From positions 1,534,878-1,574,877 of the forward strand of contig NZ_CP040463.1 of NCBI RefSeq assembly GCF_005843985.1: a stretch of DNA of 40,000 nucleotides, written 5' to 3'. Origin of the DNA: Caminibacter mediatlanticus TB-2 (GTDB lineage Bacteria > Campylobacterota > Campylobacteria > Campylobacterales > Nautiliaceae). The position numbers and the translations under genes were made by a program. Of the stretch, positions 7,651 through 35,079 are shown in pieces (position 1 is the stretch's first letter; the number at the start of each line of letters is the position of its first letter). Below the pieces are notes generated by a model, which made no database searches, had not been told where the DNA came from, and was given only the letters and a program-made list of their open reading frames with translations.

Positions 7651-10470
7651 ATGTCTGAATTAAAAGTTCAAGTAGGAAGAAGAGCGTTCCTGAAAATGGC
7701 AGCATTATCAGGTGTTGTTGGTGCAACATCTTTAATGGGCTCAAATTCAGCAGTTAGAGAAGCTACTGAAAATGAATTAAAAGAGCCATTTCCAGGAAGC
7801 AAACTTGTAAAAACTGTATGTACAACTTGCTCAGTTGGATGTGGAATTATAGCAGAAGTTCAAAATGGTGTATGGGTAAGACAAGAAGTTGCTCAAGACC
7901 ATCCTATTAGTCATGGAAGTCACTGCTCAAAAGGTATTGACTCAATTGATTATATCCGTACAGCAAAAAGAGTAAAACATCCACTTAAAAAAGTTAATGG
8001 AAAATGGAAAAGAATTAGTTGGGATGAAGCAATTAATGAAATTAGTGAAAAAATGTTAAAAATTAGAAAAGAAAGTGGACCTGATGCAACAATGTTTTTA
8101 GGTTCAGCAAAAATGGGTACTGAACAATCATATTATTTTAGAAAATTTGCGGCATTTTGGGGTACTAATAATATAGACCATCAAGCCCGTATTTGACATA
8201 GTGCAACAGTCGCGGGGGTCGCGAATACATGGGGTTATGGTGCAATGACAAATCATTTAGGAGATATTCAAAATTCAAAAGCAATCATAATTTTTGGGGC
8301 AAATCCAGCAGTAAATCATCCAGTAGGCTTTAAGCACTTCTTAAAAGCAAAAGAAAGAAATAATGCACTTTTAATTGTTGTTGACCCAAGATTTACACGC
8401 ACAGCAGCAAAAGCAGATATTTATGTAAGGATAAGACCAGGTACTGATATTCCATTTATGTATGGAATGTTACATTTAATATTAAAACACGGATGGCATG
8501 ATGAAGAATTTATTAAAAATAGAGTATTTGGATTTGATGAAGTTATAAAAGAAGCAAAAAAATGGGACCCTAAAAAAGTAGAAGATGTAACAGGAGTACC
8601 TGCTTCTAAATTAATTCAAGTAACAAGAGCATATGCTTCAAGAAAACCTGGAACTCTTGTATGGGCAATGGGCCTTACACAACACAGCATTGGTTCCTCA
8701 AATACAAGAATGGCACCAATACTTCAACTATCTCTTGGAAATATGGGAGTATTTGGTGGTGGATGTAACATTTTAAGAGGTCATGATAATGTCCAAGGTG
8801 CAACTGATATGTGCTGTTTGTCACATTCATTACCTGGATATTATGGATTAAGCGAAGGAAGTTGGAAATATTTTGCACATAACTGGGGAGTTGATTTTGA
8901 CTGGCTTCAAAAAAGATTTGCATCACCTAAATGGATGACAACAAAAGGATTCACTCTTGCTAAATGGTGGGATGGTGTTACACAAGAAGAACCTATCTAT
9001 TCAAGTTCTCCAATTAGAGTATTATGGGTTCAAGGTAATGGTATAACATCTATCGCACAACAAGAAAAAGTAAAAAAAGCATTAGATAAACTTGACTTAT
9101 TAGTAATAGCTGAACCATTTGCAAATGAAGCTGCTATATTAACTGATAAAGAAAATGATGTATATATCTTACCAACAGCAAGTCAATTTGAATGTGAAGG
9201 AAGTGTTACTGCAACAAATAGGTCAGCACAATGGAGAAGTAAAGTAGTAGACCCATTGTATGAGAGTAAAACTGATGAAGAAATAATGTTTGAGTTTGCT
9301 AAAAAATTTGGATTTTATGATGAATTTGTTCGTGGTATGATGATGGGCGTTAAAGATGGTAAAGCTGTAAAAGTTAAAAATACATTCAAATGGCCAGAAG
9401 ATGCAACAAGAGAAATAGCAAGAATAATTAAAACTATTGGATTAACAGGATGGACACCTGAAAGACTTAAAAAACACCAAGAAAATTGGCATATGTTTGA
9501 TGAAGTAACTTTAAAAGGTATTGGTCCTATGGCTGGTGAATATTATGGATTACCTTGGCCTTGCTGGACAGAAGAGCATCCTGGAAGTCCTGTTTTATAT
9601 AATATAAACATTCCAGCAAAAGAAGGTGGAATGGGTTTTAGAGCAAGATTTGGTACAGAATATAAAGGAGTAAATTTATTAGCTGGACCAGCTGCTACAA
9701 TTAAAGGAGCAAAAGTAGAAGGTGGATATCCTGAACTTACAAAAGACAATATTGAAAAAGTCCTTGGAATTAAACTATCTCCAAAAGAAAAAGAAATTAT
9801 GGGTAAAAATTGGAAAGTAGATTTAAGCGGACTTATTGCAAAATATGCTCTTGAAGCTGGCGTAGTCCCTTATGGTAATGCAAAAGCAAGAGCATATGTA
9901 TGGACATTCCCTGATCCAATTCCAAAACACAGAGAACCGCTCCATACACCAAGATATGATTTAGCAAAAATTTATCCAACTTATCCTGACAAAAAAAATC
10001 AGTACAGATGTGATACAAAATTTATTTCGATTCAAAAAACAGATTGGTCAAAAGAATTTCCAATTAATTTAGTTACAGGAAGACTTGTAATGTATAGTGG
10101 TGCAGGATTAATTGAAAGAAATAGCAAATACATTACTCAACTTGAACCTGAAATGTTTGCTCATATTAATCCAGAACTTGCTTATAAACATGGTATCAAT
10201 GATGGTGATATGATGTGGATTTACTCACCTGATGGTGCAAAAATAAAAGTAAAAGCAAAATTTAGCTATTCTGTATCACCAGATAGAATATTCTTACCAT
10301 TCCATTTTGCAGGTATATTTGAAGGAAAAGATTTAAGTGATAAATATCCAGAAGGACTTGTTCCATATGCAATTGGTGAGAGTGCAAATACTGTAACAAA
10401 CTACGGATACGACATTATTACCCAAATTCCAGAAACAAAAGCGGGTCTATGCCGCATTGAAAAAGCATAA
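7651..10470 (+). CDS. fdhA: periplasmic formate dehydrogenase catalytic subunit, selenocysteine-containing (TGA 8194..8196 = Sec)
   Basis: Same-frame ORFs 7651..8196 and 8245..10470 join as ...DHQARI-U-HSATVAGVANTWGYGAMTNH, the Sec/Cys active-site context of Mo/W-bisPGD FDHs. Tat signal GRRAFLKMAAL. N-terminal Cys cluster CTTCSVGCG. RBS AAGGAG. Confidence 0.92.
8197..8231 (+). promoter_or_regulatory. SECIS-like hairpin downstream of the fdhA UGA
   Basis: UCGCG(8210-8214)/CGCGA(8220-8224) form a stem with apical loop GGGGU. A short lower pairing joins CAU(8197-99) and AUG(8229-31). The loop lies about 21 nt after the UGA, as in bacterial SECIS elements. Confidence 0.6.
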
Positions 10471-16505: not shown

Positions 16506-16846
16506 TCTACTTTCCTTAATACAATAAACCCTTCTTTTAAATTCATTAGTAAATTTTTAAACTCACTATCTGCAAGACACTCTAATTTTTTTATATGTTC
16601 AGGAAAAATTTCTACTTCTCCATACTTAAATACATTACCTATTTTAAATTTTGCATATTCACATGAGCGTGATATTATATCTTTTAATTTTTCTTCATCA
16701 ATTTCCATTACACACTCTAAAAAATCAATTTTTCCTACACTTCCATGACCTGTTGTTGTAGAAAAAACTTTTACTTGATTTAATTTTTCATTTTTTAAAT
16801 CACACTTCTCAACATGTCTTCTTGTTAATTTAAAAACTTTAATCAT
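16502..16846 (-). CDS. hyfJ: formate hydrogenlyase maturation protein HycH/HyfJ
   Basis: 114 aa. FSTTTGHGSVGKIDFLE and KYGEVEIF align with E. coli HycH YSLAIGHHLGVIDCLE and KYGEIVID. Confidence 0.7.
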   Translation of the reverse strand: MIKVFKLTRRHVEKCDLKNEKLNQVKVFSTTTGHGSVGKIDFLECVMEIDEEKLKDIISRSCEYAKFKIGNVFKYGEVEIFPEHIKKLECLADSEFKNLLMNLKEGFIVLRKVD

Positions 16847-18217: not shown

Positions 18218-18226
18218 CTTAAACTC

Positions 18227-19969: not shown

Positions 19970-19976
19970 ATACTCC

Positions 19977-21458: not shown

Positions 21459-21461
21459 TTT

Positions 21462-22115: not shown

Positions 22116-22116
22116 T

Positions 22117-23043
22117 TTACGCTCCTAACACATAAGTTATTACTGCCATAAAAGCAATAACTAATGCAAAATTTGCTTTTCTTTTGAAACTACTAAGCAA
22201 TTTATATCTTGGACCAAAGTTATCAATAAAAACTGCCCCTACATAAAACACACCAGCTTTTATAATGTAAATTAGAAGTGCTAATAAAGGAAATTCAACA
22301 TTCCATGGTTCAAAAATTGATAAAAATAGTCCTATCATTACAAACTGTTTAATAAGCATTGTCATATGAGAAATAGCTAAATCGCTACCGCTATATTCCC
22401 CTAGTACTCCCTCTTGAAGTTCTTGTTCTGCTTCTGCTAAATCATATGGATTTCTTGCCATTTCTACATACATTGCCCAAAGAAATGCAATTGAAGCAAT
22501 TGCAAAAGAAGGATAAATATATCCAATTTGCCAATGTTTTACCATATATTGAATTTCTACTAAATTAGATGTTTTAGCAAGTAACATTACTACTATTAAG
22601 CATAAAACAATTACTGGTTCTACAAAAACACCTATCATTTGCTCTCTACTCCCACCAATTGCAGCAAATGCATTTCCACTATCATTTGATGCAACACCAA
22701 AAATAAATCTAAAAAATGCTCCAAGATATAAAATTACAAATAAATCTGACACAACCCCTGCTTTAAAATCAGTTGCATACGTAATAGGTAACGCTGCAAG
22801 CATTGTTGCAACTACACCAAACATAATATATGGTGCATATTTAAAAACCCAATGAGCATTTTTAGGATATACTCTTCCTCTTTTAAAAAGTTTATATAGG
22901 TCTCTATAAGTTTGGAAAGGGTCAGGTGGACCTTTTCTTGCTTGCATTTTTGCTCTAATCATTCTTGCGACACCATCAAAAAATGGTGCTACCGCAACTA
23001 CCGCTAAAACTTGAACTACCATCCAAAATAATGTTGTACTCAT
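22117..23043 (-). CDS. hyfC: NuoH-like membrane subunit (HycD/HyfC)
   Basis: 308 aa polytopic protein. NuoH/HycD-like loop LAEAEQELQEGVLGEYSG. Confidence 0.85.
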   Translation of the reverse strand: MSTTLFWMVVQVLAVVAVAPFFDGVARMIRAKMQARKGPPDPFQTYRDLYKLFKRGRVYPKNAHWVFKYAPYIMFGVVATMLAALPITYATDFKAGVVSDLFVILYLGAFFRFIFGVASNDSGNAFAAIGGSREQMIGVFVEPVIVLCLIVVMLLAKTSNLVEIQYMVKHWQIGYIYPSFAIASIAFLWAMYVEMARNPYDLAEAEQELQEGVLGEYSGSDLAISHMTMLIKQFVMIGLFLSIFEPWNVEFPLLALLIYIIKAGVFYVGAVFIDNFGPRYKLLSSFKRKANFALVIAFMAVITYVLGA

Positions 23044-23053
23044 AGCTTTCTCC

Positions 23054-25021: not shown

Positions 25022-25031
25022 TTTAAATCCT

Positions 25032-25613
25032 TTATGCTTTAATGCATTGAACTAATGCATCAACAGCTTCAGTTGCTTTATTCATTACTAATTGGTCTTG
25101 TTTTTTAGGTTCAAAAAATACTAATGCATCAGTAGGACATACCTCAACACACGCTGGTCCCCCTTCTCTTCCTTTACACAAATCACATTTAACTGCTATT
25201 GTTTTTAAACCTATTGCACTTTCAAGTGTAGGAATTTTTTCAGGTTCTAATCTATAATCCACACTTGGCATTGCTTCTGCTGCTGGTCTTATTGCTCCAA
25301 ATGGACATGCAATTGAGCATAATTTACATCCAATACATATTTCTTCATAAAGTTCAATTTCATCTTCTCCAAATCTTAAAGCTCCCACAGGACAAACATT
25401 TGCACATGGAGCATCATCACACTGTCTACATTGATTTGGCATAACTCCATACATCCCTCTTGTAACAATCAAACGAGGAGTAGCAAGTTTACCCCTCTCA
25501 TATGCTGATTCAAAACACGCCGCCATACATGTTGCACAACCTATACATTTTTCTGGATTTGCAATTACAAATTTATTTTTTTTATTAATTTGCATGACTA
25601 ACTCCTTACACAC
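25032..25613 (-). CDS. hyfA: poly-ferredoxin electron-transfer subunit (HycB/HyfA)
   Basis: 193 aa. CIGCATCMAAC, CRQCDDAPCANVCP, CIGCKLCSIACP and CDLC..CVEVCP. Overlaps the fdhF end by 16 nt. Confidence 0.9.
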   Translation of the reverse strand: MCKELVMQINKKNKFVIANPEKCIGCATCMAACFESAYERGKLATPRLIVTRGMYGVMPNQCRQCDDAPCANVCPVGALRFGEDEIELYEEICIGCKLCSIACPFGAIRPAAEAMPSVDYRLEPEKIPTLESAIGLKTIAVKCDLCKGREGGPACVEVCPTDALVFFEPKKQDQLVMNKATEAVDALVQCIKA

Positions 25614-27829
25614 TTAGCATATTCAGCTTCCATTTGTTGTAGAAGCTCTTTTCTAATTTTTAAAAACTCTTCTTCACTAATTTTTTGAATATTAGCAATT
25701 GACATTTTAAGAGGCGGCGTTTTTGCTAACTTATCAAGTGGTTCTGGTGGAACAAGCTCGTTACCATCTGCTTCTGCATAATGGAATGTTGTAAATATTG
25801 TTCCATATCTCATATCAGGTCTAACAACTGCTTTTGCTGCAATAAGTCCTCTTTTATTCCATACTTTTACATAATCACCTGTCTCAATACCTCTCTCATC
25901 AGCAATATCTTGAGAAATTTCAATAGTAGCTCCCATAATATCAGCACCCATTTCAAGAGGCTTACACTCTCTTGTCATTGTACCTGTATGATAGTGATAA
26001 ACTTTTCTTCCTGTTGTAAACATACAAGGATAAACTTCATTTGGTTTTTCACTTGGAACACCAACTCCAACTAAATAATCATCTGGTGCTCCAATTTTTT
26101 TTCTAAATTCTTCTTCTAAAATATCTCTATCTCCATCCTCACTAAATCCAACTGGTACTAATACAAATTTTCCATCTGGAAGCATTGATTTTTTATCTGC
26201 ATATAAATAAGGAGTTCCTGGATGTTCTTCATCAGGGCATGGCCAATTTATTCCATTAAGTTTTTTTATTCTTTCATAACTTATACCACCAAATTTTGAA
26301 GGACAAACTTTTCTTACTTCATTCCAAATCTCCTCAGCCCTTAGAAAATCAAATCCTTTAAGCCCAATTCTATTTGCAACATTACAAATAACTTTCCAAT
26401 CTGGTTCTAAATTAGCAGGTGGTGTTACTGCAGCTGATAGGTATTGGACTCTTCTTGAAGTATTATTAAATGTACCTTCTTTTTCACTCCAACAAGCAGC
26501 AGGCAATACTACATCTGCTCTTTGAGCAGTTTCTGTTAAGAAAATATCTTGAACTACAATAAAATCAACATGACATAATGCTTCTAAGAAATGATCTGTC
26601 CATGGGTCTGACATAACAGGATTTTCTCCAAAAATGTATAAACATTTAATAAGACCCTCTTCCATTTTATGAGGAACTTCTGTTAATGTCCATCCAGGAT
26701 TTGGATTAATTTTAAAGCCCCAAACACTCTCAACATGTTTTCTATACTCATCATTTGTAAGAGGTCCTCCTGTAAGTGTATTTGGAAGTGCTCCCATATC
26801 ACCTGCACCTTGGACATTATTTTGACCTCTAAGTGGATTAACTCCTCCACCTTTTACTCCAAGGTTTCCTGTAAGAATTGCTAAATTTGACATTTGAAAT
26901 ACTTGATAAGTTCCATAACTAAATTGAGTTACACCCATTGTATAACAAATTGCAGATGGATTTCCTTTTGCATAAAGTTCTGCTGCTTTTTTAATATCCT
27001 CTGCATTTAAATCATACTCTTTTGCAACTCTCTCAGGTGTAAATTCTTCAACTGATTTTTTAAGATATTCAAATCCTTTTGAGTATTTTTCGACAAATTC
27101 TTTATCATAAAGTTCGTTTTTAATAATATGATAAATCATTGCATTAATTACAGGAATATTCCTTCCAACAGGTACAGGAATATAAACATCAGCTTTTTTA
27201 GCCATATCAATTCCACGAGGGTCAATTACAATTAGTTTTGCTCCTCTTTCAAGTCCTCTTTGAATTTGCATTGCAATAATAGGATGACACTCACTCGTAT
27301 TTGTCCCAATAAGTAAAAATACATCAGTATCAGTTGCAAATTCTGCTAAGTCATTTGTCATAGTCCCACTACCAAGTGTTTTAGCCAGACCGGCTACTGT
27401 TGGACCATGTCATAAACGAGCACAATGGTCTATATTATTTGTACCTAAGGCTCTAAAAAATTTTTGAAAAACATAATTATCTTCATTTAAACATCTTGCA
27501 GATGAAAATCCAAAAATTGAATTTGGACCATATTTTTCAACAGATTCTTTAATTTTTGAAGCAACTAAGTTATATGCTTCCTCCCAACTTGCTTCTTCAA
27601 GTTTTCCATCTTTTGAAAATTTACCATCTTTTTTTCTAATTAGAGGTTTTGTAAGTCTTTTTGGAGAGTGAACATATTCCCATCCATACCAACCTTTTAA
27701 ACACAACTCTCCATCATTTACAGGATGATTTGGTGTTGGTTTAGCTTCAACTATCCTTCCATTTTCTACATACAAATCTATATTACAACCAGTCCCACAA
27801 TAAGGACAGACAGTTTGATATTTAGTCAT
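25598..27829 (-). CDS. fdhF: cytoplasmic formate dehydrogenase H, selenocysteine-containing (TGA at 27410..27412, minus strand)
   Basis: ORFs 27410..27829 and 25598..27361 are in one frame: ...[31 protein letters not shown]. N-terminal CPYCGTGC..C cluster and no signal peptide. Sec is residue 140 counted from the Met, as in E. coli FdhH. First gene of the hyf operon. Confidence 0.92.
27372..27409 (-). promoter_or_regulatory. SECIS-like hairpin downstream of the fdhF UGA
   Basis: Minus-strand RNA is UGA CAU GGU CCAACAGU AGCC-GGUCU-GGCU AAAACAC UUGG. Upper stem AGCC/GGCU carries apical loop GGUCU (E. coli fdhF SECIS has a GGUC-type loop). Lower stem is CCAA/UUGG. Confidence 0.65.
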
Positions 27830-27994: not shown

Positions 27995-28636
27995 ATGAGA
28001 AAAAGTTGTAGATTAAAAATAACATCATTTCCTATTGAAAAAATTGTAAATAAAGAAGACCTTCAAAAATTTCCTAAAATAAATTTTAAAAAAGGAGAAA
28101 TTTACTATCCAGAAGATATAAAATTACTTCTTATTGAAAAAGGAGAAGCAAAAGTTATTTTTGTTCATTCAGATAAAGAGTTTATTTTGTATTATTTAAA
28201 AGAAGGAAATTTTTATGTTATGCATCCTCAAACTTATTTAGAATTTAAAAAAGATTCAACTATCTATTTATTAGACCCAAATCAATTTAACGAATTATAT
28301 CAAAATAAAGACTTTGCTAATGCAATACTTAATAGTTTTACTAAAATAATGATGCTTGAAAAAGAAATAATTAAAGAACTCGCCTTTTATGAATGCGAAC
28401 AAAGAATTGCAAATTTTTTGTTAAACATTACTAAAAATTGCATAAAAGACCAAAATGATAATTATATTTTAAAAAAGAAATTAACAGTTACTGAAATATC
28501 CAATTTTATTGGAGTAAGAAGACAAACAGCTTCAAAAATTTTTAATCAATTTATTGAAGAAGGGATAATTGAAAAAAAAAGAGGAGATTTAATTATTAAA
28601 AATATAAAAAAACTTAAAGAGATTGTAAAAAGTTAG
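27995..28636 (+). CDS. Crp/Fnr-family transcriptional regulator
   Basis: 213 aa. N-terminal cNMP-type beta-barrel region and C-terminal HTH TEISNFIGVRRQTASKIFNQFIEEGII, which aligns with CRP [27 protein letters not shown]. No FNR-type N-terminal Cys cluster. TATAAT at 27972-77. Confidence 0.85.
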   Translation: MRKSCRLKITSFPIEKIVNKEDLQKFPKINFKKGEIYYPEDIKLLLIEKGEAKVIFVHSDKEFILYYLKEGNFYVMHPQTYLEFKKDSTIYLLDPNQFNELYQNKDFANAILNSFTKIMMLEKEIIKELAFYECEQRIANFLLNITKNCIKDQNDNYILKKKLTVTEISNFIGVRRQTASKIFNQFIEEGIIEKKRGDLIIKNIKKLKEIVKS

Positions 28637-28691: not shown

Positions 28692-30011
28692 ATGGAATTA
28701 TTTAGAAAAATTCCAAAAGTAGATAAAATACTTAGTAAATTAAATTATCCTAAAAAAGTTGCTATTCCTATTATTAATAAACACTTAAATAAACTAAGAG
28801 AAAATATAAAAAATGGAGTTATAAAAGAAATAGATGAAGATAATTTAATAAAAGAAATCGAATTAGAGATAAAAAAAGCTTTTTCTCCTTCTATGCTTAA
28901 TATTATAAATGCAACAGGAGTTATAATTCATACAAACCTTGGAAGAAGTTTAATTGATGAAGAAATTTTTGAAAAAGCAAAACAACTTTCAACTCGATAC
29001 TCAAATTTAGAATATAATTTAGAAAAAAGCAAAAGAGGAGATAGATACACTCACGCAAGTAAATTTTTAAGACTTCTTTTTGGATGTGAAGATGCATTAA
29101 TTGTAAATAATAATGCAGCAGCTGTGTTTTTAATTTTGAATACTTTTGCAAAAGATAAAGAAGTAATAGTTTCAAGAGGAGAATTAGTAGAAATTGGAGG
29201 AAGTTTTAGAATCCCAGAAGTTATGAAAGCAAGTGGAGCTAAATTAATTGAAGTTGGAACTACTAATAAAACAAAAATACAAGATTACAAAGAAGCAATA
29301 ACTGAAAATACCTCTATGCTTATGAAAGTTCATAAATCAAACTATACAATTGAAGGATTTAGTGAAGAAGCAAGTTTAGAAGAGATTGTTAATTTAGCAA
29401 AAGACAATAATCTACTTGATTATTACGACCTTGGAAGTGCTTATTTACCTCCTCTTCCATACAATTTAGGAAAAAATGAACCATCAATTTTTGATATAAT
29501 GAAAAAAAATCCAAGTTTAGTTAGTTTTAGTGGGGATAAACTTTTTGGAAGTGTTCAAGCTGGTATTATTTTAGGAAAAAAAGAGTTAATTGCAAAACTT
29601 AAAAAAAATCAAATTTTAAGAATGTTTAGAGTTGATAAAATCACTTTATCAATTATTGAGGCTACGGCATTAGAATATTTAAAAGAAAATTATGAAAAGA
29701 TACCTACCCTAAAACTTTTATATCAAAATGAAGAAAAGTTAATTAAAAAGGCAAAAAAGATTATTGAATTATCAGGTAAAGATTTAGAGATTAAAAAAAC
29801 ATTTACATATGTTGGTGGTGGGACTATGCCAAATAAAAAAATCCCATCAATTGCAATAGTATTAAATGGAAATCCTACAAAACTTGAAAAATATTTTAGA
29901 GAAAACCTAATAATAGGAAGAATTGAAAATGAAAAGTTTCTTTTAGATGTTAGGACAATTTTAGAAGATGAATTTGAAAAAGTAGCAAAAGTTATAAGGA
30001 GTTTAGATTGA
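28692..30011 (+). CDS. selA: L-seryl-tRNA(Sec) selenium transferase
   Basis: 439 aa. SelA strings MKVHKSNY and FSGDKLFGSVQAGII. Translationally coupled (TTGA) to selB. Confidence 0.9.
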   Translation: MELFRKIPKVDKILSKLNYPKKVAIPIINKHLNKLRENIKNGVIKEIDEDNLIKEIELEIKKAFSPSMLNIINATGVIIHTNLGRSLIDEEIFEKAKQLSTRYSNLEYNLEKSKRGDRYTHASKFLRLLFGCEDALIVNNNAAAVFLILNTFAKDKEVIVSRGELVEIGGSFRIPEVMKASGAKLIEVGTTNKTKIQDYKEAITENTSMLMKVHKSNYTIEGFSEEASLEEIVNLAKDNNLLDYYDLGSAYLPPLPYNLGKNEPSIFDIMKKNPSLVSFSGDKLFGSVQAGIILGKKELIAKLKKNQILRMFRVDKITLSIIEATALEYLKENYEKIPTLKLLYQNEEKLIKKAKKIIELSGKDLEIKKTFTYVGGGTMPNKKIPSIAIVLNGNPTKLEKYFRENLIIGRIENEKFLLDVRTILEDEFEKVAKVIRSLD

Positions 30012-31831
30012 GAAACATAATTATTGGGACTGCTGGACATGTAGACCATGGTAAAACTTCACTAATTGAAGCTATGACAGGATATAATGGAGATGAATTA
30101 GAAGAAGAAAAAGAAAGAGGAATTACGATTGATTTGAGTTTTACTAATATGAAAAAGGGGGATGTAAATGTAGCTTTTATCGATGTACCAGGTCATGAAA
30201 AGTTAGTTAAAAATATGATTAGTGGAGCTTTTGGATTTGATGCAACTCTATTTGCAATAGACACAAATGAAGGAATAATGCCCCAAACAATTGAACATTT
30301 AGAAGTTTTAGATATTCTAAAAGTTAAAAATATCATTGTAGCTCTTACAAAAAAAGATTTAGCTACACCTGAACTTATAGAAAAAAGAAAAAAAGAGATT
30401 AAAGAATTAATTTCTAAATTTAAAAATCTAAAACTTCTTGAAATTTTCCCTACTTCCATAAAAGATAAAGAATCTATTGATAAACTAAAAGATTATCTAT
30501 TTAATCTACCACCAAGAGAAATAACTCATTCAAAATTTTTTAGATACTATGTAGATAGAGTATTTAGTCTAAAAGGAATTGGGACAGTTGTAACAGGGAC
30601 AGTTTTAAGTGGAAAAGTAAAACTTAAAGATAAAATATATATAAATGAGACAAAAACTTTAACAAATGTAAAAAACTTACAAGTCCATGGAGAAAATGTA
30701 AGTGAAGCTTATACCCACCAAAGAGTTGCAATAAATTTAAATATTCCACACACAGAAATAAAAAAAGGTTATTTACTCTCAACTAAGGGATATTTAAGAG
30801 GATTTAATCGAATTGATGTATATGTGCATCCAGTGGAAGGAAAAGAATTATTTCATAATATGGAAATTTTATTTATTAGTGGTGCAAAAAGAGTTAGAGG
30901 AAAATTACTTTTTATAGATAAAGAAAAAGGACTTGCAACCATAAAACTTGATGAAAATGTATTTTTAGTTTACAAAGACCCTTTTGTAATTTTGCATCAA
31001 GGAAGAGTATATGGTGGAGGAGAAGTTTTAAATCCAATAAATGACCCTATTAAAAAGAAAAAGAAAAAAATCTATTTAGAACATCTAAAAGAAGGAGATT
31101 TATTAAAAGTATTTGAATTTTTAGTATCTCAACACAAAAAAGGATTTGGTCTACTTCAAGGCTATCAAAGATTTAACATCTCACCTAATGAAGCATTAGA
31201 AATTGCTAAAAACTTAAAAAATGCAATTGTTGATGAAGAAAATTTTAATTTATATCATATTGATGTAATCGATGAAATAAAAAAAATTATTAAAGATATT
31301 TATGAAAAAAATAGACTTGCTTTTATTTCACCCTCTTCTTTATCTTCACAACTTAAATGGGCAAGTGAATATTTAACAAAACTTGTTTTAGATGAATTTG
31401 TAAAAGAAGGATATCTGCAAAAAGAAGGAAACATATATAAAAGAAAAGATTTAGGAAATGTAAATATATTAAGCTCAGTTGAACAAAGACTCTATTCAAT
31501 ACTTGATAACGAAGGTTTAATGCCAGAGGCACCATATAACTTATATACAAGATTAAATATTGATAGAAAAGTTGGAGATAATGCCCTAAAAAAATTAACT
31601 TCTGCAAAAAAAGTAGTAAGACTATCTCATAATCTATTTGTAACTTCTAAAAATTTAACTATTGCAATTAATAAAATGAAAGATATTATTAAAAAAAGAG
31701 GATATATTGATGTAAAAGTATTTAAAGAAGAGATGCCAATGAGTAGAAAATATATTATTGCATATTTAGATTATTTAGACAATTTAGGAGACATTATTAA
31801 AAAAGATAATAAAAGATATTTAAAAACTTAA
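30008..31831 (+). CDS. selB: selenocysteine-specific elongation factor
   Basis: TTG start overlapping the selA stop. G domain AGHVDHGKT, DVPGHEK, TKKD. Long C-terminal winged-helix extension typical of SelB. Confidence 0.9.
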   Translation: MRNIIIGTAGHVDHGKTSLIEAMTGYNGDELEEEKERGITIDLSFTNMKKGDVNVAFIDVPGHEKLVKNMISGAFGFDATLFAIDTNEGIMPQTIEHLEVLDILKVKNIIVALTKKDLATPELIEKRKKEIKELISKFKNLKLLEIFPTSIKDKESIDKLKDYLFNLPPREITHSKFFRYYVDRVFSLKGIGTVVTGTVLSGKVKLKDKIYINETKTLTNVKNLQVHGENVSEAYTHQRVAINLNIPHTEIKKGYLLSTKGYLRGFNRIDVYVHPVEGKELFHNMEILFISGAKRVRGKLLFIDKEKGLATIKLDENVFLVYKDPFVILHQGRVYGGGEVLNPINDPIKKKKKKIYLEHLKEGDLLKVFEFLVSQHKKGFGLLQGYQRFNISPNEALEIAKNLKNAIVDEENFNLYHIDVIDEIKKIIKDIYEKNRLAFISPSSLSSQLKWASEYLTKLVLDEFVKEGYLQKEGNIYKRKDLGNVNILSSVEQRLYSILDNEGLMPEAPYNLYTRLNIDRKVGDNALKKLTSAKKVVRLSHNLFVTSKNLTIAINKMKDIIKKRGYIDVKVFKEEMPMSRKYIIAYLDYLDNLGDIIKKDNKRYLKT

Positions 31832-31832
31832 T

Positions 31833-31930
31833 TGGCGGAAGGGGGTAGGAATCGAACCTACCGGGCGACAGTCACCTGCCGCCCCACCGGGTTTGAAGCC
31901 CGGGGTGGCCACCAGGTCCACATCCCCTCC
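31833..31930 (-). tRNA. selC: tRNA-Sec (anticodon UCA)
   Basis: 98 nt: GGAGGGGA..CCGGG-CUUCAAA-CCCGG (anticodon UCA). Long variable arm GGGCGGCAG-GUGA-CUGUCGCCC. T arm GUAGG-UUCGAUU-CCUAC. 3' GCCA encoded. GC-rich island in AT-rich DNA. Confidence 0.93.
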
Positions 31931-32019: not shown

Positions 32020-32151
32020 AAACTTCTTACCTAAGGTTTAGGTACTCTTATCATATAAAATTGGCCTAAGGATTAGGCAATACAGAAGTAGCCTTCATTA
32101 ACTTCTGGTGTACAAATCAATCATAAAATGTTGTTAAATAAAGGAGAGAAA
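32020..32151 (+). promoter_or_regulatory. structured 5' leader of the yedF-selD operon (candidate cis-regulatory RNA or tandem operators)
   Basis: Hairpins UACCUAA-GGU-UUAGGUA (32028-44), GCCUAA-GGA-UUAGGC (32064-78) and CAGAAGU-11nt-ACUUCUG (32083-32107). ACUUCU at 32022-27 can alternatively pair with AGAAGU at 32084-89. Confidence 0.35.
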
Positions 32152-32736
32152 ATGAAAATAGATTGTAGGGGACTTGCATGTCCAGAGCCTGTAATTAAAA
32201 CAAAAAGAGCATTAGATGAAATTAATGAAGGTGTAATTGAAGTAATTGTAGATAATATTGCTTCAAAAGAGAATGTAAAAAGATTTGCTGAAAATCAAGG
32301 ATATAGTGTTGATGTAAAAGAAGACAATGGCATTTCAATTCTTACAATAGTAAAAGGTTATGAGTGTAAAATTGTAGAAGATAATAGTAATAATTTATTA
32401 AACAAAACTCTTTTATTTAAAGATGACAAAGTAGGAGAAGGAGAACTTGGAAAAAAACTTCTTAGAGGTTTTTTAAAAACTTTACTCGATTTTGATAAGT
32501 TACCAAAAACAATTATTTTTATAAATAGAGGTGTTTTTGTAACAACAAAAGAAGAATTTTCTGATGTCCAAGAAATATTAAAAGAACTTAATAAAAAAGG
32601 TGTAGAAATATACTCTTGCGGTCTTTGTATGGAACATTTTGGAATAAATCCAAAAGAGTTAAAAGTTGGGGAAATTGGAAATGCCTTTGGGACTATGGAT
32701 GCTTTACTTAATTCAGAAAATACAATTACTTTTTAA
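32152..32736 (+). CDS. yedF: long-form YedF-like selenium metabolism protein (TusA/SirA domain + DsrE-like C-terminal domain)
   Basis: Start taken at ATG 32152 (RBS AAAGGAGAG); an alternative ATG is at 32128. N-terminal domain MKIDCRGLACPEPVIKTKRAL carries the TusA CPxP motif. The C-terminal domain has YSCGLCMEHFG. Confidence 0.75.
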   Translation: MKIDCRGLACPEPVIKTKRALDEINEGVIEVIVDNIASKENVKRFAENQGYSVDVKEDNGISILTIVKGYECKIVEDNSNNLLNKTLLFKDDKVGEGELGKKLLRGFLKTLLDFDKLPKTIIFINRGVFVTTKEEFSDVQEILKELNKKGVEIYSCGLCMEHFGINPKELKVGEIGNAFGTMDALLNSENTITF

Positions 32737-32745
32737 GGAGACAAT

Positions 32746-33861
32746 ATGAAAAGAAGAGATTTTTTAAAAACAAGTGCAGTTTTAGGCTTAGTTTCAACAA
32801 TGCCGATTAGTTTAAGTGCAAATGAAAATAATGCTACAAGAAGATTTAATGTTAAATATATGTTTAATATTAAATATTATGAAAAAGAATATCCTGCAAG
32901 ACTTTGGAATCCAATGCCATATAATGCAGAATATCAGCATGTAAGATATTTAAATTTTGATGGTAATTATAATGATTATGATTTAAATACTAATAATGAA
33001 TATGACGCAAATACTTTTTATGCAGAATGGAAAAAATCTGATATGCCAAAAATTGTATTAATGGAAATGATAATTGAAACAAAATATAGAACAATACCAA
33101 TTGATAAAATTGAATACTTCTCAAAACAAAACTTACCTATTCCAAAAAATGTAAAAAAATATCTTGAACCTACTGCTCATATACCAACAGGAGGAATAAT
33201 TAAACAACTTGCAGATAGAATAACTCAAGGGAAAAAAGATAGATTTGAAAAAGTAAAAGCAATTTATTATTGGTGTGTATCACATACATTTAGAGACCCA
33301 AAAGTTATAGGATGTGGTAAAGGTGATGTTAATAAAATGGTAAAAAAACAAGATGTAGAAGATATTTATAAAAATGGATGGTTTGGTGGTAAATGTACAG
33401 ATTTAAGTTCACTATTTACAGCTTTAACTCGCGCAGCAGGAGTACCTGCAAGAGAAGTATTTGGTATTAGACTTGGAAAAAGTTATTTTTCTAAAGCTCT
33501 TGGAAAAAGTAATGACAAAGGATTTGCAAATATTACCACTTGGCAACATTGTAGGGCTGAGTATTATATTCCAGGAGCTGGATGGATACCAACAGACCCA
33601 GCTGATATTACAAAATTAATGCTTGTTGAAAATCTAAAATTTGACCATCCAAAAGTACAAAAATTAGTAAAAAAATATCTAAATTCTTGGGAAATGAACT
33701 GGGTTGGATTTAATCACGCAAGAGATTTTGTGCTTTACCCAAAACCAACTCAATATCCACTTAATATGTTTGGATATCCATATGCTGAGGTTAATGATGA
33801 AGTATTAAATTATTATGTACCAAAATCTTTTGAATACAAAATTACTTCGCAAGAGTTATAA
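32746..33861 (+). CDS. Tat-exported transglutaminase-like (Cys-His-Asp) protein
   Basis: Twin-arginine signal MKRRDFLKTSAVLGLVS. Transglutaminase core GGKCTDLSSLFTALTRAAGVPAREVFG, HCRAEYYIPGAGWIPTDPAD. Confidence 0.8.
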   Translation: MKRRDFLKTSAVLGLVSTMPISLSANENNATRRFNVKYMFNIKYYEKEYPARLWNPMPYNAEYQHVRYLNFDGNYNDYDLNTNNEYDANTFYAEWKKSDMPKIVLMEMIIETKYRTIPIDKIEYFSKQNLPIPKNVKKYLEPTAHIPTGGIIKQLADRITQGKKDRFEKVKAIYYWCVSHTFRDPKVIGCGKGDVNKMVKKQDVEDIYKNGWFGGKCTDLSSLFTALTRAAGVPAREVFGIRLGKSYFSKALGKSNDKGFANITTWQHCRAEYYIPGAGWIPTDPADITKLMLVENLKFDHPKVQKLVKKYLNSWEMNWVGFNHARDFVLYPKPTQYPLNMFGYPYAEVNDEVLNYYVPKSFEYKITSQEL

Positions 33862-33864
33862 TAA

Positions 33865-34452
33865 ATGGTTAAAAAAATTGATTGTAGAAATTTAGCCTGT
33901 CCTGAGCCTGTATTGAAAACAAAAGAGGCATTAGAAGAGATGGAAGAAGGAATTTTAGAAGTTAAGCTTAATTCCTTCTCTTCTATTCAAAATGTTAAAA
34001 GATTTGCTAAGAACCAAGGATTGTATATATCAGAAAAAAAAGATGGAAAAGATACGATAATATCAATTGTTAAAGGTTATGAATGTGAAATACCTTATAA
34101 GCAAACGAATGAATCAAAATCATTTTGGACTTTGATTATTGGAGCGGTTATAACAGCTTTTTTAGCAAGTACGTGTTGTTTAGGACCTCTTTTATTCTTA
34201 ATTTTTGGAATAAGTGTTGGTAGTCTTTCTTTTTTACATATATTTGCACCATATCATATATACTTTTCAATCGCAGCAGTATTAATTATTTTGTATTTAT
34301 GGGGCAATTGGTTTTTTAAATTAAGAAAAAAACCTGTTTGTGAGGGAAGTATTTGTAAAAACTATGTAAAATACCTAACAATTGGTACTATATTTGTAGC
34401 AATTTTAGTTACTTATCCTTATTGGGCTCAATATATTTTAATAGGAGAATAA
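33865..34452 (+). CDS. TusA-domain / MerT-like membrane protein fusion
   Basis: Residues 1-75: KIDCRNLACPEPVLKTKEAL (TusA). Residues about 85-195 align along the whole length of Tn501 MerT: ASTCCLGPLLFL (MerT ASACCLGPLVL), APYHIYF (EPYRPIF) and cytoplasmic-loop pair CEGSIC (CKPGEVC). Three TM segments. Confidence 0.8.
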   Translation: MVKKIDCRNLACPEPVLKTKEALEEMEEGILEVKLNSFSSIQNVKRFAKNQGLYISEKKDGKDTIISIVKGYECEIPYKQTNESKSFWTLIIGAVITAFLASTCCLGPLLFLIFGISVGSLSFLHIFAPYHIYFSIAAVLIILYLWGNWFFKLRKKPVCEGSICKNYVKYLTIGTIFVAILVTYPYWAQYILIGE

Positions 34453-34453
34453 A

Positions 34454-34726
34454 ATGAAAAAATTAATTTTATTAATTCCTTTTTTATTATTTGCAACAAA
34501 AGAAGCAATAATTGATGTTAAAGGAATGACTTGTCCTTTATGTACTACTGCAGTAAAAAGAAGTTTAAAAATGACTCCGGGCGTAAAAAACGCAAAAGTA
34601 TTTTTAAATACACATACTGCTTATGTTATTTTTGATGAAAAAAAAGTAAATACAGAAAAACTTATTCAAGCTATAAGAAATGTTGGATATGATGGAAAAA
34701 TAATCAAAATAAAGGAGGTTAAATGA
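34454..34726 (+). CDS. MerP-like periplasmic heavy-metal-associated (HMA) protein
   Basis: 90 aa. Signal peptide, then VKGMTCPLCTTAVKRSL (GMTCxxC) and a ferredoxin-like HMA fold pattern. Confidence 0.8.
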   Translation: MKKLILLIPFLLFATKEAIIDVKGMTCPLCTTAVKRSLKMTPGVKNAKVFLNTHTAYVIFDEKKVNTEKLIQAIRNVGYDGKIIKIKEVK

Positions 34727-35079
34727 AATTTTTATTTATTTTTAATCATCAGCCATATGATGGAAGCGATCTTACATGGAACGGTTTAAGACTTGCAAAA
34801 AATTTACATAATAGAGGACATGATGGTAGAATTTTTTTAATAAGTGATAGTGTGGATTTAGCAAGAGATTGTGTTAAAAAACCAGAAAACTACGATAATG
34901 ATTTAGTTGCAATGTTAAAAGAGATGTATAATAATGGAGTTAAATTAAAAGTATGTGGTACTTGCCAAGCAAGATGTGGTATTTATAAAAATGAACCATA
35001 TTTTGATGAGAAAATTAAAGCTACAATGAATGATTTAGCTAATTGGTGTGAAGAAGCAGATAAAATTATTACATTTTAA
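34723..35079 (+). CDS. DsrE/DsrF(TusD)-family sulfur/selenium-relay protein
   Basis: 118 aa. MKFLFIFNHQPYDGSD..GLRLA and VCGTCQARCGI are typical of the DsrE fold and its conserved Cys region. 4-nt overlap with the merP-like gene. Confidence 0.7.
   Translation: MKFLFIFNHQPYDGSDLTWNGLRLAKNLHNRGHDGRIFLISDSVDLARDCVKKPENYDNDLVAMLKEMYNNGVKLKVCGTCQARCGIYKNEPYFDEKIKATMNDLANWCEEADKIITF

What the first reader, a model, noticed from the sequence alone, without database searches (positions are those of the whole stretch)
33865..34452. Unusual domain fusion: cytoplasmic TusA sulfur-carrier domain joined to a complete MerT-type transporter
Seen: residues 1-75 are a TusA/SirA domain with the catalytic CPEP motif. 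The rest aligns over the full length of MerT, including the TM1 CC pair in ASTCCLGPL and a second pair (CEGSIC) in the loop before TM3. Established: the MerT N-terminus and its second Cys pair are cytoplasmic. The fused TusA domain would therefore sit beside the cytoplasmic exit Cys pair, where MerA's N-terminal domain docks in mercury systems. Inference: the fusion hard-wires the hand-off from transporter to a persulfide/perselenide carrier. That arrangement makes little sense for Hg detoxification without MerA, but fits chalcogen trafficking.
Basis: partly seen in the sequence, partly recalled or inferred. Interest (0 to 1): 0.75.

Follow-up and report, generated by a model that had tools for sequence, protein, structure and literature searches.

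The report
TusA–MerT fusion in selenium operon
A small membrane protein of the mercury-importer (MerT) type, fused to a sulfur/selenium-carrier domain, sits inside the selenocysteine operon of a deep-sea vent bacterium. With two conserved periplasmic partners it is a plausible, untested candidate for a dedicated selenium uptake system, something not yet identified in any organism.

Summary
ORF 33865-34452 (195 aa, Caminibacter mediatlanticus TB-2) is a real TusA + MerT fusion. Pfam gives TusA E=4e-19 and MerT E=6e-9. Cys12 (CPxP), the TM1 CC pair and Cys159 are invariant, and Cys164 is kept in about 92% of members.

It is not an artefact. About 100 protein clusters and 39 genome loci across Campylobacterota carry the same fusion. 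Hydropathy, the positive-inside rule and AlphaFold all put the TusA domain and the CxxxxC loop in the cytoplasm.

The transglutaminase-like gene is adjacent in 59 of 62 testable loci and the HMA gene in 67 of 67.

selD lies in 24 of 71 loci, in several different arrangements, including the most divergent, unfused lineages. No MerA was seen in any annotated Campylobacterota locus. The nearest outside relatives, in Aquificaceae, sit in a classical repressor-MerT-MerP-MerA operon.

Here the gene lies in a tight yedF-TGase-tusA::merT-HMA-dsrE-selD operon, next to selAB, tRNA-Sec and two Sec-containing formate dehydrogenases.

Best reading: a thiol-relay selenium importer that hands selenium to the SelD pathway (confidence about 0.6). 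The fusion is optional, because unfused forms are common. Function is inferred, not shown.

The parts
33865..34452 (+). tusA::merT fusion ORF (195 aa)
   Evidence: ORF. Pfam TusA plus MerT. 100% identical to the NCBI protein annotated 'mercury transporter MerT' from Caminibacter mediatlanticus TB-2.
33865..34080 (+). Cytoplasmic TusA/YedF-type domain (residues 1-72), with the CPEP motif and Cys12 at 33898-33900
   Evidence: Pfam PF01206 E=4e-19. TIGR03527 YedF N-domain E=9e-17. 56% identical to the N-domain of the neighbouring YedF. AF2 pLDDT 87-91. Foldseek TM 0.79-0.86 to SirA-like 3hz7 and to TusA in 3lvj, and a match to YeeD in the YeeE-YeeD fusion 8k1r. Cys12 is invariant in 78 sequences.
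34081..34110 (+). Flexible linker (about residues 73-82), including Cys74 of the GYEC motif
   Evidence: pLDDT below 50 for residues 75-81. The Cys12-to-CC distance varies from 85 to 136 residues across the family. The GY/FxC motif is present in 69 of 78 sequences.
34111..34452 (+). MerT-type three-helix membrane module (residues 83-195). TM1 carries Cys104/Cys105 (34174-34179). The cytoplasmic loop carries Cys159 (34339-34341) and Cys164 (34354-34356).
   Evidence: Pfam PF02411 36.4 bits, above the 32.9 cut-off. Helices 83-117, 122-153 and 167-193. Positive-inside pattern. Invariant Cys residues. 38% identical to an Aquificaceae MerT from a true mer operon, with the CC pair aligned.
32746..33861 (+). 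TAT-exported transglutaminase-like protein (371 aa); first gene of the conserved cassette
   Evidence: Pfam Transglut_core E=1.6e-20 plus a TAT signal, RRDFLK. Adjacent upstream of MerT in 59 of 62 testable loci. Invariant Cys190, Cys217 (core nucleophile), His268-Cys269 and Asp284. AF2 pLDDT 87; best PDB fold match is 3isr, a putative cysteine protease.
34454..34726 (+). Periplasmic MerP-like HMA protein (90 aa) with a signal peptide and GMTCPLC; third gene of the cassette
   Evidence: Pfam HMA E=6.8e-15. Below every NCBIfam cut-off, including CopZ, MerP and UxxU. N-terminal hydrophobic signal sequence. Adjacent downstream of MerT in 67 of 67 testable loci. Met25, Cys27 and Cys30 are invariant.
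34723..35079 (+). DsrE-like protein (118 aa) with a CGTCxxxC motif
   Evidence: Pfam DsrE E=2.2e-17. Cys78, Cys81 and Cys85 are conserved in the 5 sequences aligned. Overlaps HMA by 4 nt and lies 8 nt before selD.
35088..36122 (+). selD (selenophosphate synthetase), itself a selenoprotein with TGA at 35133-35135
   Evidence: TIGR00476 selD E=1e-101. In-frame TGA in 'KAAG*AGKL'. Hairpins at 35125-35160 immediately after the TGA.
32128..32736 (+). yedF (TusA + DsrE-like 'selenium metabolism protein'); first gene of the operon
   Evidence: TIGR03527 199.8 bits, above the 110 cut-off. 9-nt gap to the TGase gene.
31837..31930 (-). tRNA-Sec (selC)
   Evidence: ARAGORN, anticodon TCA.
28692..31831 (+). 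selA (28692-30011) and selB (30008-31831)
   Evidence: Pfam SelA E=1.8e-136. TIGR00475 selB E=4.7e-95.
25598..27829 (-). FdhH-like formate dehydrogenase with in-frame TGA (27410-27412); a consumer of the selenium
   Evidence: Molybdop_Fe4S4, Molybdopterin and Molydop_binding domains on the two ORF halves. 'HCARL*HGPT'. Codon is TGA.
7651..10470 (+). TAT-exported formate dehydrogenase alpha subunit with in-frame TGA (8194-8196); the second selenoprotein consumer
   Evidence: Pfam Molybdopterin and Molydop_binding. 'RRAFLK' and 'HQARI*HSATV'. Codon is TGA.

Best explanation
The protein is the membrane component of a three-part, cysteine-relay uptake system for selenium, conserved in Campylobacterota. 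The other two parts are a TAT-exported transglutaminase-like protein and a periplasmic MerP-like HMA protein.

Proposed route:
1. In the periplasm, the transglutaminase-like protein captures or liberates selenium from an environmental species. It has an intact Cys-His-Asp triad plus two further invariant cysteines.
2. The HMA protein's CxxC pair carries the selenium as a bis-thiolate S-Se-S (selenotrisulfide-type) adduct. This is the chemical analogue of the S-Hg-S adduct carried by MerP.
3. Selenium is passed by thiol exchange to the CC pair in TM1 of the MerT module, then to the cytoplasmic CxxxxC loop.
4. The tethered YedF-type TusA domain (Cys12 of CPxP) accepts it on the cytoplasmic face, probably as a perselenide or a mixed selenotrisulfide.
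5. The TusA domain passes it, directly or through YedF or the DsrE-like CGxC protein, to selenophosphate synthetase SelD. SelD feeds Sec-tRNA synthesis for the formate dehydrogenases encoded nearby.

The fusion replaces a diffusible TusA/YedF partner with a tethered one.

Shown here: domain identity, conserved cysteines, predicted topology, cassette conservation, selD linkage, and absence of MerA from the annotated loci.

Inferred: the substrate, the direction of transport, the chemical form of the selenium, and every transfer step.
For: Domains and cysteines are established.

Operon structure: yedF-TGase-tusA::merT-HMA-dsrE-selD have gaps of 9, 3, 1, -4 and 8 nt, with no plus-strand terminator-like site between them.

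Cassette conservation: TGase is adjacent in 59 of 62 testable loci and HMA in 67 of 67.

selD linkage: selD lies in 24 of 71 loci, and 22 of those are within about 800 nt. It is present in 9 of the 22 loci that have at least 3 kb on both flanks. It occurs downstream on the same strand, downstream convergent, and upstream divergent, with yedF or dsrE sometimes in between.

The most divergent cassette lineages keep the linkage. L062 and L063 read TGase-MerT-HMA-SelD-SelA-SelB-YedF on one strand. Arcobacter/Malaciobacter loci L067, L068 and L070 have selB-selA-selD divergent from the cassette.

The TusA domain is of the YedF type, and E. coli YedF (1je3) is among the few PDB sequence matches.

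No YedE homologue was found in the window or in about 800 kb of related loci, even though yedF is present there. In E. coli yedE and yedF are adjacent.

The nearest MerT relatives outside the cassette sit in a CsoR-like-MerT-MerP-MerA operon, whereas no MerA pattern was seen in the annotated Campylobacterota loci.

The MerT module belongs to a tight subfamily. Only 7 representatives reach E<=1e-10 among 1.84 billion proteins.

The window also encodes two Sec-containing formate dehydrogenases, FdhD, FocA, selA, selB and tRNA-Sec.

There is structural precedent for a TusA-like acceptor docking on the cytoplasmic exit of a cysteine-relay transporter, sometimes as a natural fusion: YeeE-YeeD (PMC11073785; PDB 8k1r matched).

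Selenite is known to react with a protein CxxC pair on the route to selenoproteins (PMC8538045).

Sulfurospirillum loci that lack selD place the cassette beside HGD-D/BcrAD genes. Lin et al. 2015 linked those two gene families, and a transglutaminase-like enzyme, to YedE/YedF.
Against: There is no experimental evidence of any kind.

Only about a third of loci have selD nearby (9 of the 22 loci with full flanks). In one Sulfurospirillaceae clade the cassette lies downstream of SoxA/SoxB-like genes, and thioredoxin-like or DsrE genes recur nearby. That fits sulfur as well as selenium.

TusA and DsrE are primarily sulfur-relay families. All metal-binding cysteines of MerT and MerP are retained, so a soft-metal substrate is not excluded.

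No role can be assigned to the transglutaminase-like protein. The fusion is dispensable in many lineages. The docking geometry was not modelled with confidence (pTM 0.42).

The absence of YedE was tested only in the fetched loci, not in whole genomes, and only with E. coli YedE as the query.
Confidence: 0.6

Rival explanations
1. Sulfur, not selenium. The cassette would import or relay sulfane sulfur (persulfide, polysulfide or thiosulfate-derived) across the inner membrane to the TusA domain. It would serve biosynthesis or sulfur energy metabolism in these sulfur-metabolising vent bacteria. The selD proximity would then reflect shared chalcogen chemistry or shared regulation.
For: TusA and DsrE are sulfur-relay families. 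In loci without selD, the neighbours include SoxA/TsdA cytochromes, SoxB-like 5'-nucleotidase domains, thioredoxin-like proteins and DsrE. The closest mechanistic precedent, YeeE-YeeD, is a thiosulfate system. SoxT/YeeE-like importers feed TusA in sulfur oxidisers (PMC11582611, listed).
Against: selD, often with selA, selB or yedF, is the recurrent neighbour across the deepest splits of the cassette and in several arrangements. The sox association is confined to a group of closely related loci, L012, L023 and L033. The TusA domain matches the selenium-associated YedF model best. In this window the gene sits between yedF and selD in a translationally coupled operon.
Confidence: 0.17
2. Soft-metal transport, as in mer systems. 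MerP-like and MerT-like proteins would import Hg(II) or another thiophilic metal, and the TusA domain would replace NmerA as the cytoplasmic thiol acceptor. One purpose could be to keep such metals away from the selenium pathway.
For: There is homology to MerT and MerP with all ligand cysteines conserved. The MerT module is 38% identical to a bona fide mer-operon MerT. MerT modules are fused to many metal-binding domains elsewhere: HMA in 33 of 150 representatives, and zf_CopZ in one.
Against: No MerA, MerR or MerB is present in the window or in the annotated Campylobacterota loci. Importing a toxic metal without a reductase is counter-productive. The protein scores far below NCBIfam's MerT equivalog cut-off (41.7 against 150 bits). 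TusA is not a known metal-handling domain. The conserved TGase partner has no counterpart in mer operons.
Confidence: 0.08
3. Reverse or non-transport role. The system would export or detoxify excess selenium or sulfane, or act as a membrane-bound sensor or redox relay. For example, it could pass reducing equivalents to the periplasmic TGase-like and HMA proteins rather than carrying a substrate inward.
For: Direction cannot be read from sequence. Lin et al. 2015 raised export as a possibility for YedE. GGDEF/EAL signalling genes flank some loci.
Against: Coupling to selD and selAB, which need a selenium supply at trace levels, favours import. MerT-type modules are importers in the accepted mer model (my own knowledge, and PMC8261052). 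The signalling genes are not consistently adjacent.
Confidence: 0.1
4. Artefact: a frameshift or assembly error joined two separate genes, tusA and merT.
For: Unfused merT genes exist in the same cassette in other genera.
Against: The fused ORF recurs in more than 100 protein clusters at 90% identity and in 39 species-representative genome loci from independent assemblies. The linker sequences are conserved but variable in length.
Confidence: 0.01

Closest known systems
MerT / MerP of mer (mercury resistance) operons
   Same: A three-helix membrane protein with a CC pair in TM1 and a second Cys pair in the cytoplasmic TM2-TM3 loop. A periplasmic HMA partner with GMTCxxC is encoded immediately downstream. 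It passes the Pfam MerT threshold.
   Different: No MerA, MerR or MerB. Far below NCBIfam's MerT equivalog cut-off. It forms a tight separate subfamily. It has an N-terminal TusA domain and an obligatory TAT-exported transglutaminase-like partner. Its neighbourhood is selenium genes.
YeeE/YeeD (TsuA/TsuB) thiosulfate uptake, including natural YeeE-YeeD fusions (PDB 8j4c, 8k1r; PMC11073785)
   Same: A membrane transporter with a relay of conserved cysteines. A TusA-family CPxP protein docks at its cytoplasmic exit as the 'next cysteine'. In some bacteria the two are a single polypeptide. The TusA domain of the model matches YeeD in 8k1r.
   Different: The membrane part is unrelated: the YeeE fold (about 330 aa in the 408-residue fusion chain) against a 3-TM MerT module. 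YeeD is fused at the C-terminus and TusA here at the N-terminus. YeeE/YeeD has no periplasmic partners. Its substrate is thiosulfate, which has been shown experimentally.
YedE/YedF (FdhT/FdhU of Campylobacter jejuni), the putative selenium transporter pair
   Same: A membrane protein plus a TusA-type protein associated with selD and needed for selenium-dependent formate dehydrogenase. The TusA domain here is YedF-type, and a full YedF is encoded in the same operon.
   Different: No YedE homologue was found in the window or the related loci. The MerT cassette occupies the place next to yedF that yedE occupies in E. coli. The membrane proteins are unrelated.
MerT to NmerA hand-off (N-terminal HMA domain of mercuric reductase)
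   Same: A soluble cytoplasmic thiol domain takes the cargo from the cytoplasmic Cys pair of MerT. It rests on my own knowledge, and the Ledwidge et al. 2005 reference is listed in PMC8261052.
   Different: The acceptor is a TusA fold with one CPxP cysteine, not an HMA fold with CxxC. It is tethered to the transporter rather than to a reductase.
Other MerT fusions: MerTP (NF033556), the MerT/CopZ fusion-like selenoprotein (NF045683), HMA-MerT and thioredoxin-MerT-HMA
   Same: The MerT module is a frequent fusion partner of thiol-based carrier domains.
   Different: Those partners are metal-binding or thioredoxin-like domains. TusA occurs in only 4 of the 150 best MerT-like representatives, all of them in this subfamily.

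Membership tests
MerT (Pfam PF02411) | Sequence match above Pfam's gathering score | tested here: met
   36.4 bits against 32.9, covering profile positions 9-114 of 116.
MerT (functional mercury transporter, NCBIfam NF010314 equivalog) | Score above the equivalog cut-off | tested here: not met
   41.7 bits against 150. Also below the cut-offs for MerTP, merT_RC607 and MerT_CopZ_Se.
MerT (functional mercury transporter) | Three transmembrane helices, a CC pair in TM1 and a Cys pair in the cytoplasmic TM2-TM3 loop | tested here: met
   Helices 83-117, 122-153 and 167-193. Cys104/105 are invariant, Cys159 is invariant and Cys164 is kept in at least 90%. Positive-inside pattern.
MerT (functional mercury transporter) | Operon context with MerR or another metal regulator and MerA | tested here: not met
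   Absent from the window and from the neighbours of Campylobacterota loci. Present in the Aquificaceae comparator L064.
MerT (functional mercury transporter) | Hg(II) transport activity | not testable with these tools
   Needs Hg uptake or hypersensitivity assays.
TusA / SirA-like (Pfam PF01206) | Sequence match, the CPxP motif with a reactive Cys, and the two-layer alpha/beta fold | tested here: met
   68.6 bits against 28.6. CPxP Cys12 is invariant. Foldseek TM 0.79-0.86 to 3hz7 and to TusA in 3lvj.
YedF 'selenium metabolism protein' (TIGR03527) | Two-domain architecture, TusA plus a DsrE-like domain with CGxC, scoring above the cut-off | tested here: not met
   61.5 bits against 110. Only model positions 1-85 of 194 match, and the DsrE-like half is replaced by MerT. 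The neighbouring gene 32128-32736 is the true YedF at 199.8 bits.
YeeE/YeeD-type cysteine-relay uptake (works-like comparison) | Membrane part of the YeeE/YedE (Sulf_transp) family | tested here: not met
   No Sulf_transp domain. No YedE homologue by tblastn in the window or the loci. Only the TusA half is shared.
Selenium-utilisation gene set (context definition, Lin et al. 2015) | Recurrent genomic linkage to selD, selA, selB or yedF across lineages | tested here: met
   selD lies in 24 of 71 loci, 22 of them within about 800 nt, in several arrangements that include the basal lineages.
Selenium-utilisation gene set (context definition, Lin et al. 2015) | Phyletic restriction to selD-positive genomes | not tested
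   Whole-genome presence/absence could not be queried.

The most novel reading that the evidence does not exclude
The TGase-[TusA-]MerT-HMA cassette is the first dedicated, selenium-specific uptake system. It is a 'mer-like' thiol relay that moves selenium across the inner membrane as a bis-thiolate S-Se-S adduct, in exact chemical analogy to Hg(II) in MerP/MerT. A TAT-exported transglutaminase-fold enzyme acts as a new kind of periplasmic selenium-capturing or selenium-liberating enzyme. A tethered YedF-type TusA domain serves as the perselenide acceptor that feeds SelD. In these bacteria the cassette functionally replaces YedE.
Probability: 0.35. Interest if true: 0.85.

Novelty: new variant of a known kind. 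Interest (0 to 1): 0.68.

Why it matters
[quoted passage not shown] YedE/YedF is still only a candidate.

A compact, conserved cassette welded into selD operons gives a concrete, testable second candidate. It has an explicit cysteine relay that can be probed by mutating individual residues.

It would also show that the MerT/MerP 'mercury' scaffold has been recruited for an essential trace element. That would caution against annotating such genes as mercury resistance; NCBI currently names this protein a MerT mercury transporter. It would also assign a first physiological context to a large family of periplasmic transglutaminase-like proteins (1,234 relatives at E<=0.001).

Finally, the fusion is an independent, convergent example of the design seen in YeeE-YeeD, a cysteine-relay transporter paired with a TusA acceptor.

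Tried and rejected
1. Measuring the Cys12 to Cys159/164 distance. The AF2 model has pTM 0.42 and a disordered linker, and no coordinates are exposed. The check was abandoned, so no docking claim is made.

2. Literature search for a prior description. Five searches and targeted reading found no paper describing a TusA-MerT fusion or a TGase-MerT-HMA cassette. This library omits most subscription journals, so absence is not proof.

3. YedE as a neighbour. tblastn with E. coli YedE against the window and 76 loci found nothing. The test is limited to the fetched DNA and to one query.

4. A consistent alternative partner in loci without selD. The Pfam census of 136 neighbouring ORFs gave only a diffuse picture: PAS/GGDEF/EAL, Sox, thioredoxin-like and DsrE. 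No single rival pathway emerged.

5. PDB relatives. There is no solved MerT-like structure and no sequence relative of the TGase-like protein. The fold search gave only an uncharacterised putative cysteine protease, 3isr, and eukaryotic transglutaminases. Nothing about the substrate could be learned.

6. A MerT-rhodanese fusion (P0183) looked like a parallel case. It lies on a 1.2-kb contig with no context, and no obvious active-site cysteine is visible in the rhodanese part. It was not used as evidence.

7. The NJ tree of MerT modules. It suggests that the unfused state is ancestral and that TusA was lost or gained repeatedly. It rests on about 110 residues without support values, so it is only indicative. 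Four 'unfused' loci (L041, L045, L055, L058) start at a contig edge and cannot be scored.
Full report
**1. What is there**

The window is from Caminibacter mediatlanticus TB-2 (Nautiliaceae, Campylobacterota). The 195-aa product of ORF 33865-34452 (+) is 100% identical to an NCBI protein of that strain annotated 'mercury transporter MerT'.

Pfam places a TusA domain at residues 3-68 (E=4.1e-19). It places a MerT domain at 89-190, covering positions 9-114 of the 116-position profile (E=6.2e-9, 36.4 bits, gathering score 32.9).

ACPEP holds Cys12, ASTCCLGPL holds Cys104/105, and CEGSIC holds Cys159/164.

**2. It is a real, conserved fusion**

A search of 5.8 billion proteins returned 142 relatives. 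More than 100 of these clusters (at 90% identity) carry both Pfam domains in one chain of about 185-240 aa. They come from Caminibacter, Lebetimonas, Nautilia, Nitratifractor, Sulfurospirillum and many MAGs.

In an alignment of 78 fused members, Cys12, Cys104, Cys105 and Cys159 are invariant. Cys164 is kept in at least 90%; six sequences read CETWLS.

The distance from Cys12 to the CC pair ranges from 85 to 136 residues, so the linker is a variable tether. A frameshift or assembly artefact is excluded.

**3. Topology and fold**

AlphaFold2, run with the 78-sequence alignment, gives a confident TusA domain (pLDDT 87-91) and a disordered linker (residues 75-81, pLDDT below 50). It gives three long helices at 83-117, 122-153 and 167-193.

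Across the family, the median K+R count is 3 just before TM1, 0 in the TM1-TM2 loop, 4 in the TM2-TM3 loop and 0 in the C-tail (single sequence). This is the N-in, C-out topology of the accepted MerT model. It puts both the TusA domain and the CxxxxC loop in the cytoplasm and the CC pair towards the periplasmic end of TM1.

Foldseek matches the TusA half to SirA-like 3hz7, to TusA in the IscS-TusA complex 3lvj, and to YeeD within the YeeE-YeeD fusion structures 8j4c and 8k1r. By sequence, the few PDB matches include E. coli YedF, 1je3. No MerT-type structure exists to compare with.

**4. The TusA domain is a YedF-type domain**

Its best NCBIfam match is TIGR03527, 'selenium metabolism protein YedF' (E=9.4e-17, model positions 1-85 only). 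This is far better than its YeeD match.

It is 56% identical over 79 residues to the N-domain of the bona fide YedF encoded two genes upstream. The match includes the post-domain 'IVKGYEC' motif.

**5. The real unit is a three-gene cassette**

I fetched 71 loci from GTDB species-representative genomes and mapped the window's proteins onto them.

- A gene for a TAT-signal transglutaminase-like protein lies immediately upstream of the MerT gene in 59 of 62 loci where this can be judged.
- A gene for a signal-peptide HMA (MerP-like, GMTCxxC) protein lies immediately downstream in 67 of 67.
- The loci without the transglutaminase-like gene are Aquificota.

Thirty-nine loci carry the TusA fusion and 32 were scored as unfused. 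Four of the 32 begin at a contig edge and cannot be judged. In truly unfused loci the TGase gene ends about 15-40 nt before merT, so there is no room for a TusA domain. These include Sulfurimonas, Sulfurovum, some Sulfurospirillum, and Arcobacter/Malaciobacter.

The TGase-like protein keeps the Cys217-His268-Asp284 triad of the transglutaminase core. It has two further invariant cysteines, Cys190 and Cys269. Its model is confident (pLDDT 87). It resembles only an uncharacterised putative cysteine protease (3isr) and eukaryotic transglutaminases. The HMA protein keeps Met25, Cys27 and Cys30 invariant.

**6. Linkage to selenium genes**

In this window the genes yedF, TGase, tusA::merT, HMA, dsrE-like and selD follow each other with gaps of 9, 3, 1, -4 and 8 nt. 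No plus-strand terminator-like site lies between them. selA, selB and tRNA-Sec lie directly upstream.

SelD is itself a selenoprotein, with TGA at 35133-35135 in 'KAAG*AGKL'.

Across the 71 loci, selD is present in 24, and in 22 of these it lies within about 800 nt of the cassette. It is present in 9 of the 22 loci that have at least 3 kb on both flanks.

The arrangements differ:
- downstream on the same strand, directly or after dsrE or yedF;
- downstream and convergent;
- upstream and divergent;
- with selAB on either side.

The most divergent cassette lineages keep the linkage. L062 and L063 read TGase-MerT-HMA-SelD-SelA-SelB-YedF on one strand. Arcobacter/Malaciobacter loci have selB-selA-selD divergent from the cassette. 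In an NJ tree of the MerT modules these unfused, selD-linked lineages are basal (indicative only).

For a single-copy gene in a roughly 2-Mb genome, chance adjacency within about 1 kb is of the order of 0.1-0.3% per lineage. Linkage that is rearranged repeatedly yet retained argues for functional coupling.

In Sulfurospirillum loci without selD, the cassette lies beside HGD-D/BcrAD genes. Lin et al. 2015 list these two gene families, and a 'transglutaminase-like enzyme', among the STRING partners of YedE/YedF in Slackia (PMC5322559).

The rest of the window is a formate and selenium island. It holds:
- two Sec-containing formate dehydrogenases, with TGA at 8194-8196 and at 27410-27412;
- FdhD and a FocA-type channel;
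- a solute-binding protein plus an ABC ATPase;
- a hydrogenase-4-like complex.

**7. It is not a mercury system**

No MerA, MerR or MerB is present in the window. None appeared in the Pfam-annotated contexts or in a census of 136 neighbouring ORFs from 17 loci without selD.

In contrast, an Aquificaceae MerT, the closest relative outside the cassette (38% identical, CC pair aligned), sits in a CsoR-like repressor-MerT-MerP-MerA operon.

An exhaustive phmmer scan of 1.84 billion representatives with the MerT module alone found only 7 representatives at E<=1e-10. After that there is a drop to generic MerT-like proteins, so this is a tight, separate subfamily.

Among the 150 best representatives, 145 match MerT, 33 also carry HMA, and only 4 carry TusA. 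All 4 are within this subfamily. The protein scores far below NCBIfam's MerT equivalog cut-off, 41.7 against 150 bits.

**8. YedE is missing where expected**

In E. coli yedE and yedF are adjacent. In C. jejuni the homologous FdhT/FdhU pair is needed for selenium-dependent formate dehydrogenase (review PMC6682613; PMC5322559).

tblastn with E. coli YedE finds nothing in the window or in about 800 kb of related loci, although yedF occurs there. This is consistent with the MerT cassette taking the place of YedE. It was not tested genome-wide.

**9. Most likely mechanism (inference)**

I propose a thiol-relay import of selenium modelled on MerP/MerT. A selenium atom bridged by two thiolates (S-Se-S) is the chemical analogue of S-Hg-S. 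Selenite is known to react with a protein CxxC pair on the route to selenoproteins (TrxA, PMC8538045).

The proposed order is:
1. the periplasmic TGase-like protein (capture or liberation; role unknown);
2. the HMA CxxC pair;
3. the MerT TM1 CC pair;
4. the cytoplasmic CxxxxC loop;
5. Cys12 of the tethered TusA domain, as a perselenide or mixed adduct;
6. YedF and/or the DsrE-like CGxC protein;
7. SelD.

The last membrane step mirrors YeeE-YeeD. There a TusA-family protein docks at the cytoplasmic exit of a cysteine-relay transporter as the 'fourth cysteine', and the two are one polypeptide in some bacteria (PMC11073785).

Unfused cassettes are common and apparently ancestral. The fusion is therefore best seen as a lineage-specific tethering of an acceptor that elsewhere acts in trans.

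**10. Rivals**

Sulfur trafficking is the serious alternative. TusA and DsrE are sulfur-relay families. One group of related loci has SoxA/SoxB-like genes upstream of the cassette, and thioredoxin-like genes recur nearby. I rate it about 0.17, because the selD linkage spans the deepest splits while the sox linkage is confined to one group of related loci.

I rate soft-metal transport at about 0.08 and an export, sensor or redox-relay role at about 0.1. An artefact is excluded.

**11. Novelty**

I found no description of this fusion or cassette in the searchable literature. NCBIfam has no model that claims either the fusion or the TGase-like protein. Public annotation calls the fusion a MerT mercury transporter.

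A 2024 paper states that no dedicated selenium transporter is known in any organism (PMC11097638).

Mechanistically this is a new variant of known kinds, the MerT/MerP thiol relay and the cysteine-relay transporter with a TusA acceptor. It is not a categorically new system. Its function remains inferred from comparative genomics alone.

Noticed in passing
window 35088-36122 (+); TGA at 35133-35135; hairpins at 35125-35160: selD is itself a selenoprotein. Its start is ATG 35088, not the TTG at 35145 given by the ORF list. An in-frame TGA lies in 'KAAG*AGKL', and two small hairpins overlap or follow the TGA; they are probably a bacterial SECIS element.
   Followed up: partly
window 7651-10470 (+) and 25598-27829 (-): There are two formate dehydrogenase catalytic subunits, each split by an in-frame TGA. 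One is TAT-exported ('HQARI*HSATV', TGA 8194-8196). The other is FdhH-like ('HCARL*HGPT', TGA 27410-27412) and is attached to a hydrogenase-4/Complex-I-like module at 16083-25613 (-), which suggests a formate hydrogenlyase.
   Followed up: partly
window 31837-31930 (-): tRNA-Sec lies between selB and yedF but on the opposite strand to all the sel genes around it.
   Followed up: no
window 3775-4563 (-), 12118-13988 (+), 14936-15802 (-), 27995-28636 (+): FdhD, an SBP_bac_11 solute-binding protein with an ABC ATPase (possibly molybdate or tungstate uptake), a FocA-type formate channel and a Crp-like regulator complete what looks like a self-contained formate-dehydrogenase and selenium island.
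   Followed up: partly
window 32746-33861 (+) and homologues (alignment A4): The TAT-exported transglutaminase-like protein has 1,234 relatives at E<=0.001. Besides the Cys-His-Asp triad it keeps two extra invariant cysteines, Cys190 in 'GCG' and Cys269 next to the catalytic His. It has no characterised homologue, and its role in the cassette is unexplained.
   Followed up: partly
L072-L075 (Sulfurospirillum loci), about 3.5-7.8 kb upstream of the cassette: Genes for an HGD-D/BcrAD_BadFG pair (2-hydroxyacyl-CoA dehydratase-like protein plus activase), and either SelO or a Thioredox_DsbH protein, flank the cassette where selD is absent. Lin et al. 2015 list the same dehydratase/activase pair as associated with YedE/YedF in Slackia.
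   Followed up: no
L012, L023, L033 (about 0.2-5.5 kb upstream of the TGase gene); possibly also L024: In one Sulfurospirillaceae clade the cassette lies directly downstream of SoxA/TsdA-type cytochrome and SoxB-like genes. This is the main observation favouring a sulfur reading over a selenium reading.
   Followed up: partly
P0183 (L078:127-1098): This is a MerT-like module fused to a C-terminal rhodanese-like domain through a Cys-rich linker (323 aa). It may be a second kind of sulfurtransferase-MerT fusion. It sits on a 1.2-kb contig, and no obvious active-site Cys is visible in the rhodanese part.
   Followed up: partly
L061:8001-8345: The merT gene of this Sulfurovum MAG is frameshifted in the middle. 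This is either a pseudogene or an assembly error.
   Followed up: no
window 36129-39293 (-): A 1,054-aa predicted lipoprotein lies immediately after selD, convergent with it. It has a calcineurin-like metallophosphatase domain and repeated OB-fold-like segments. Its function is unknown.
   Followed up: no
window 34723-35079 (+): The stand-alone DsrE-like protein carries CGTCxxxC, the same CGxC signature as the C-domain of YedF (CGLC). It is found after the HMA gene only in Nautiliaceae-type loci (L001, L002, L005, L041).
   Followed up: partly
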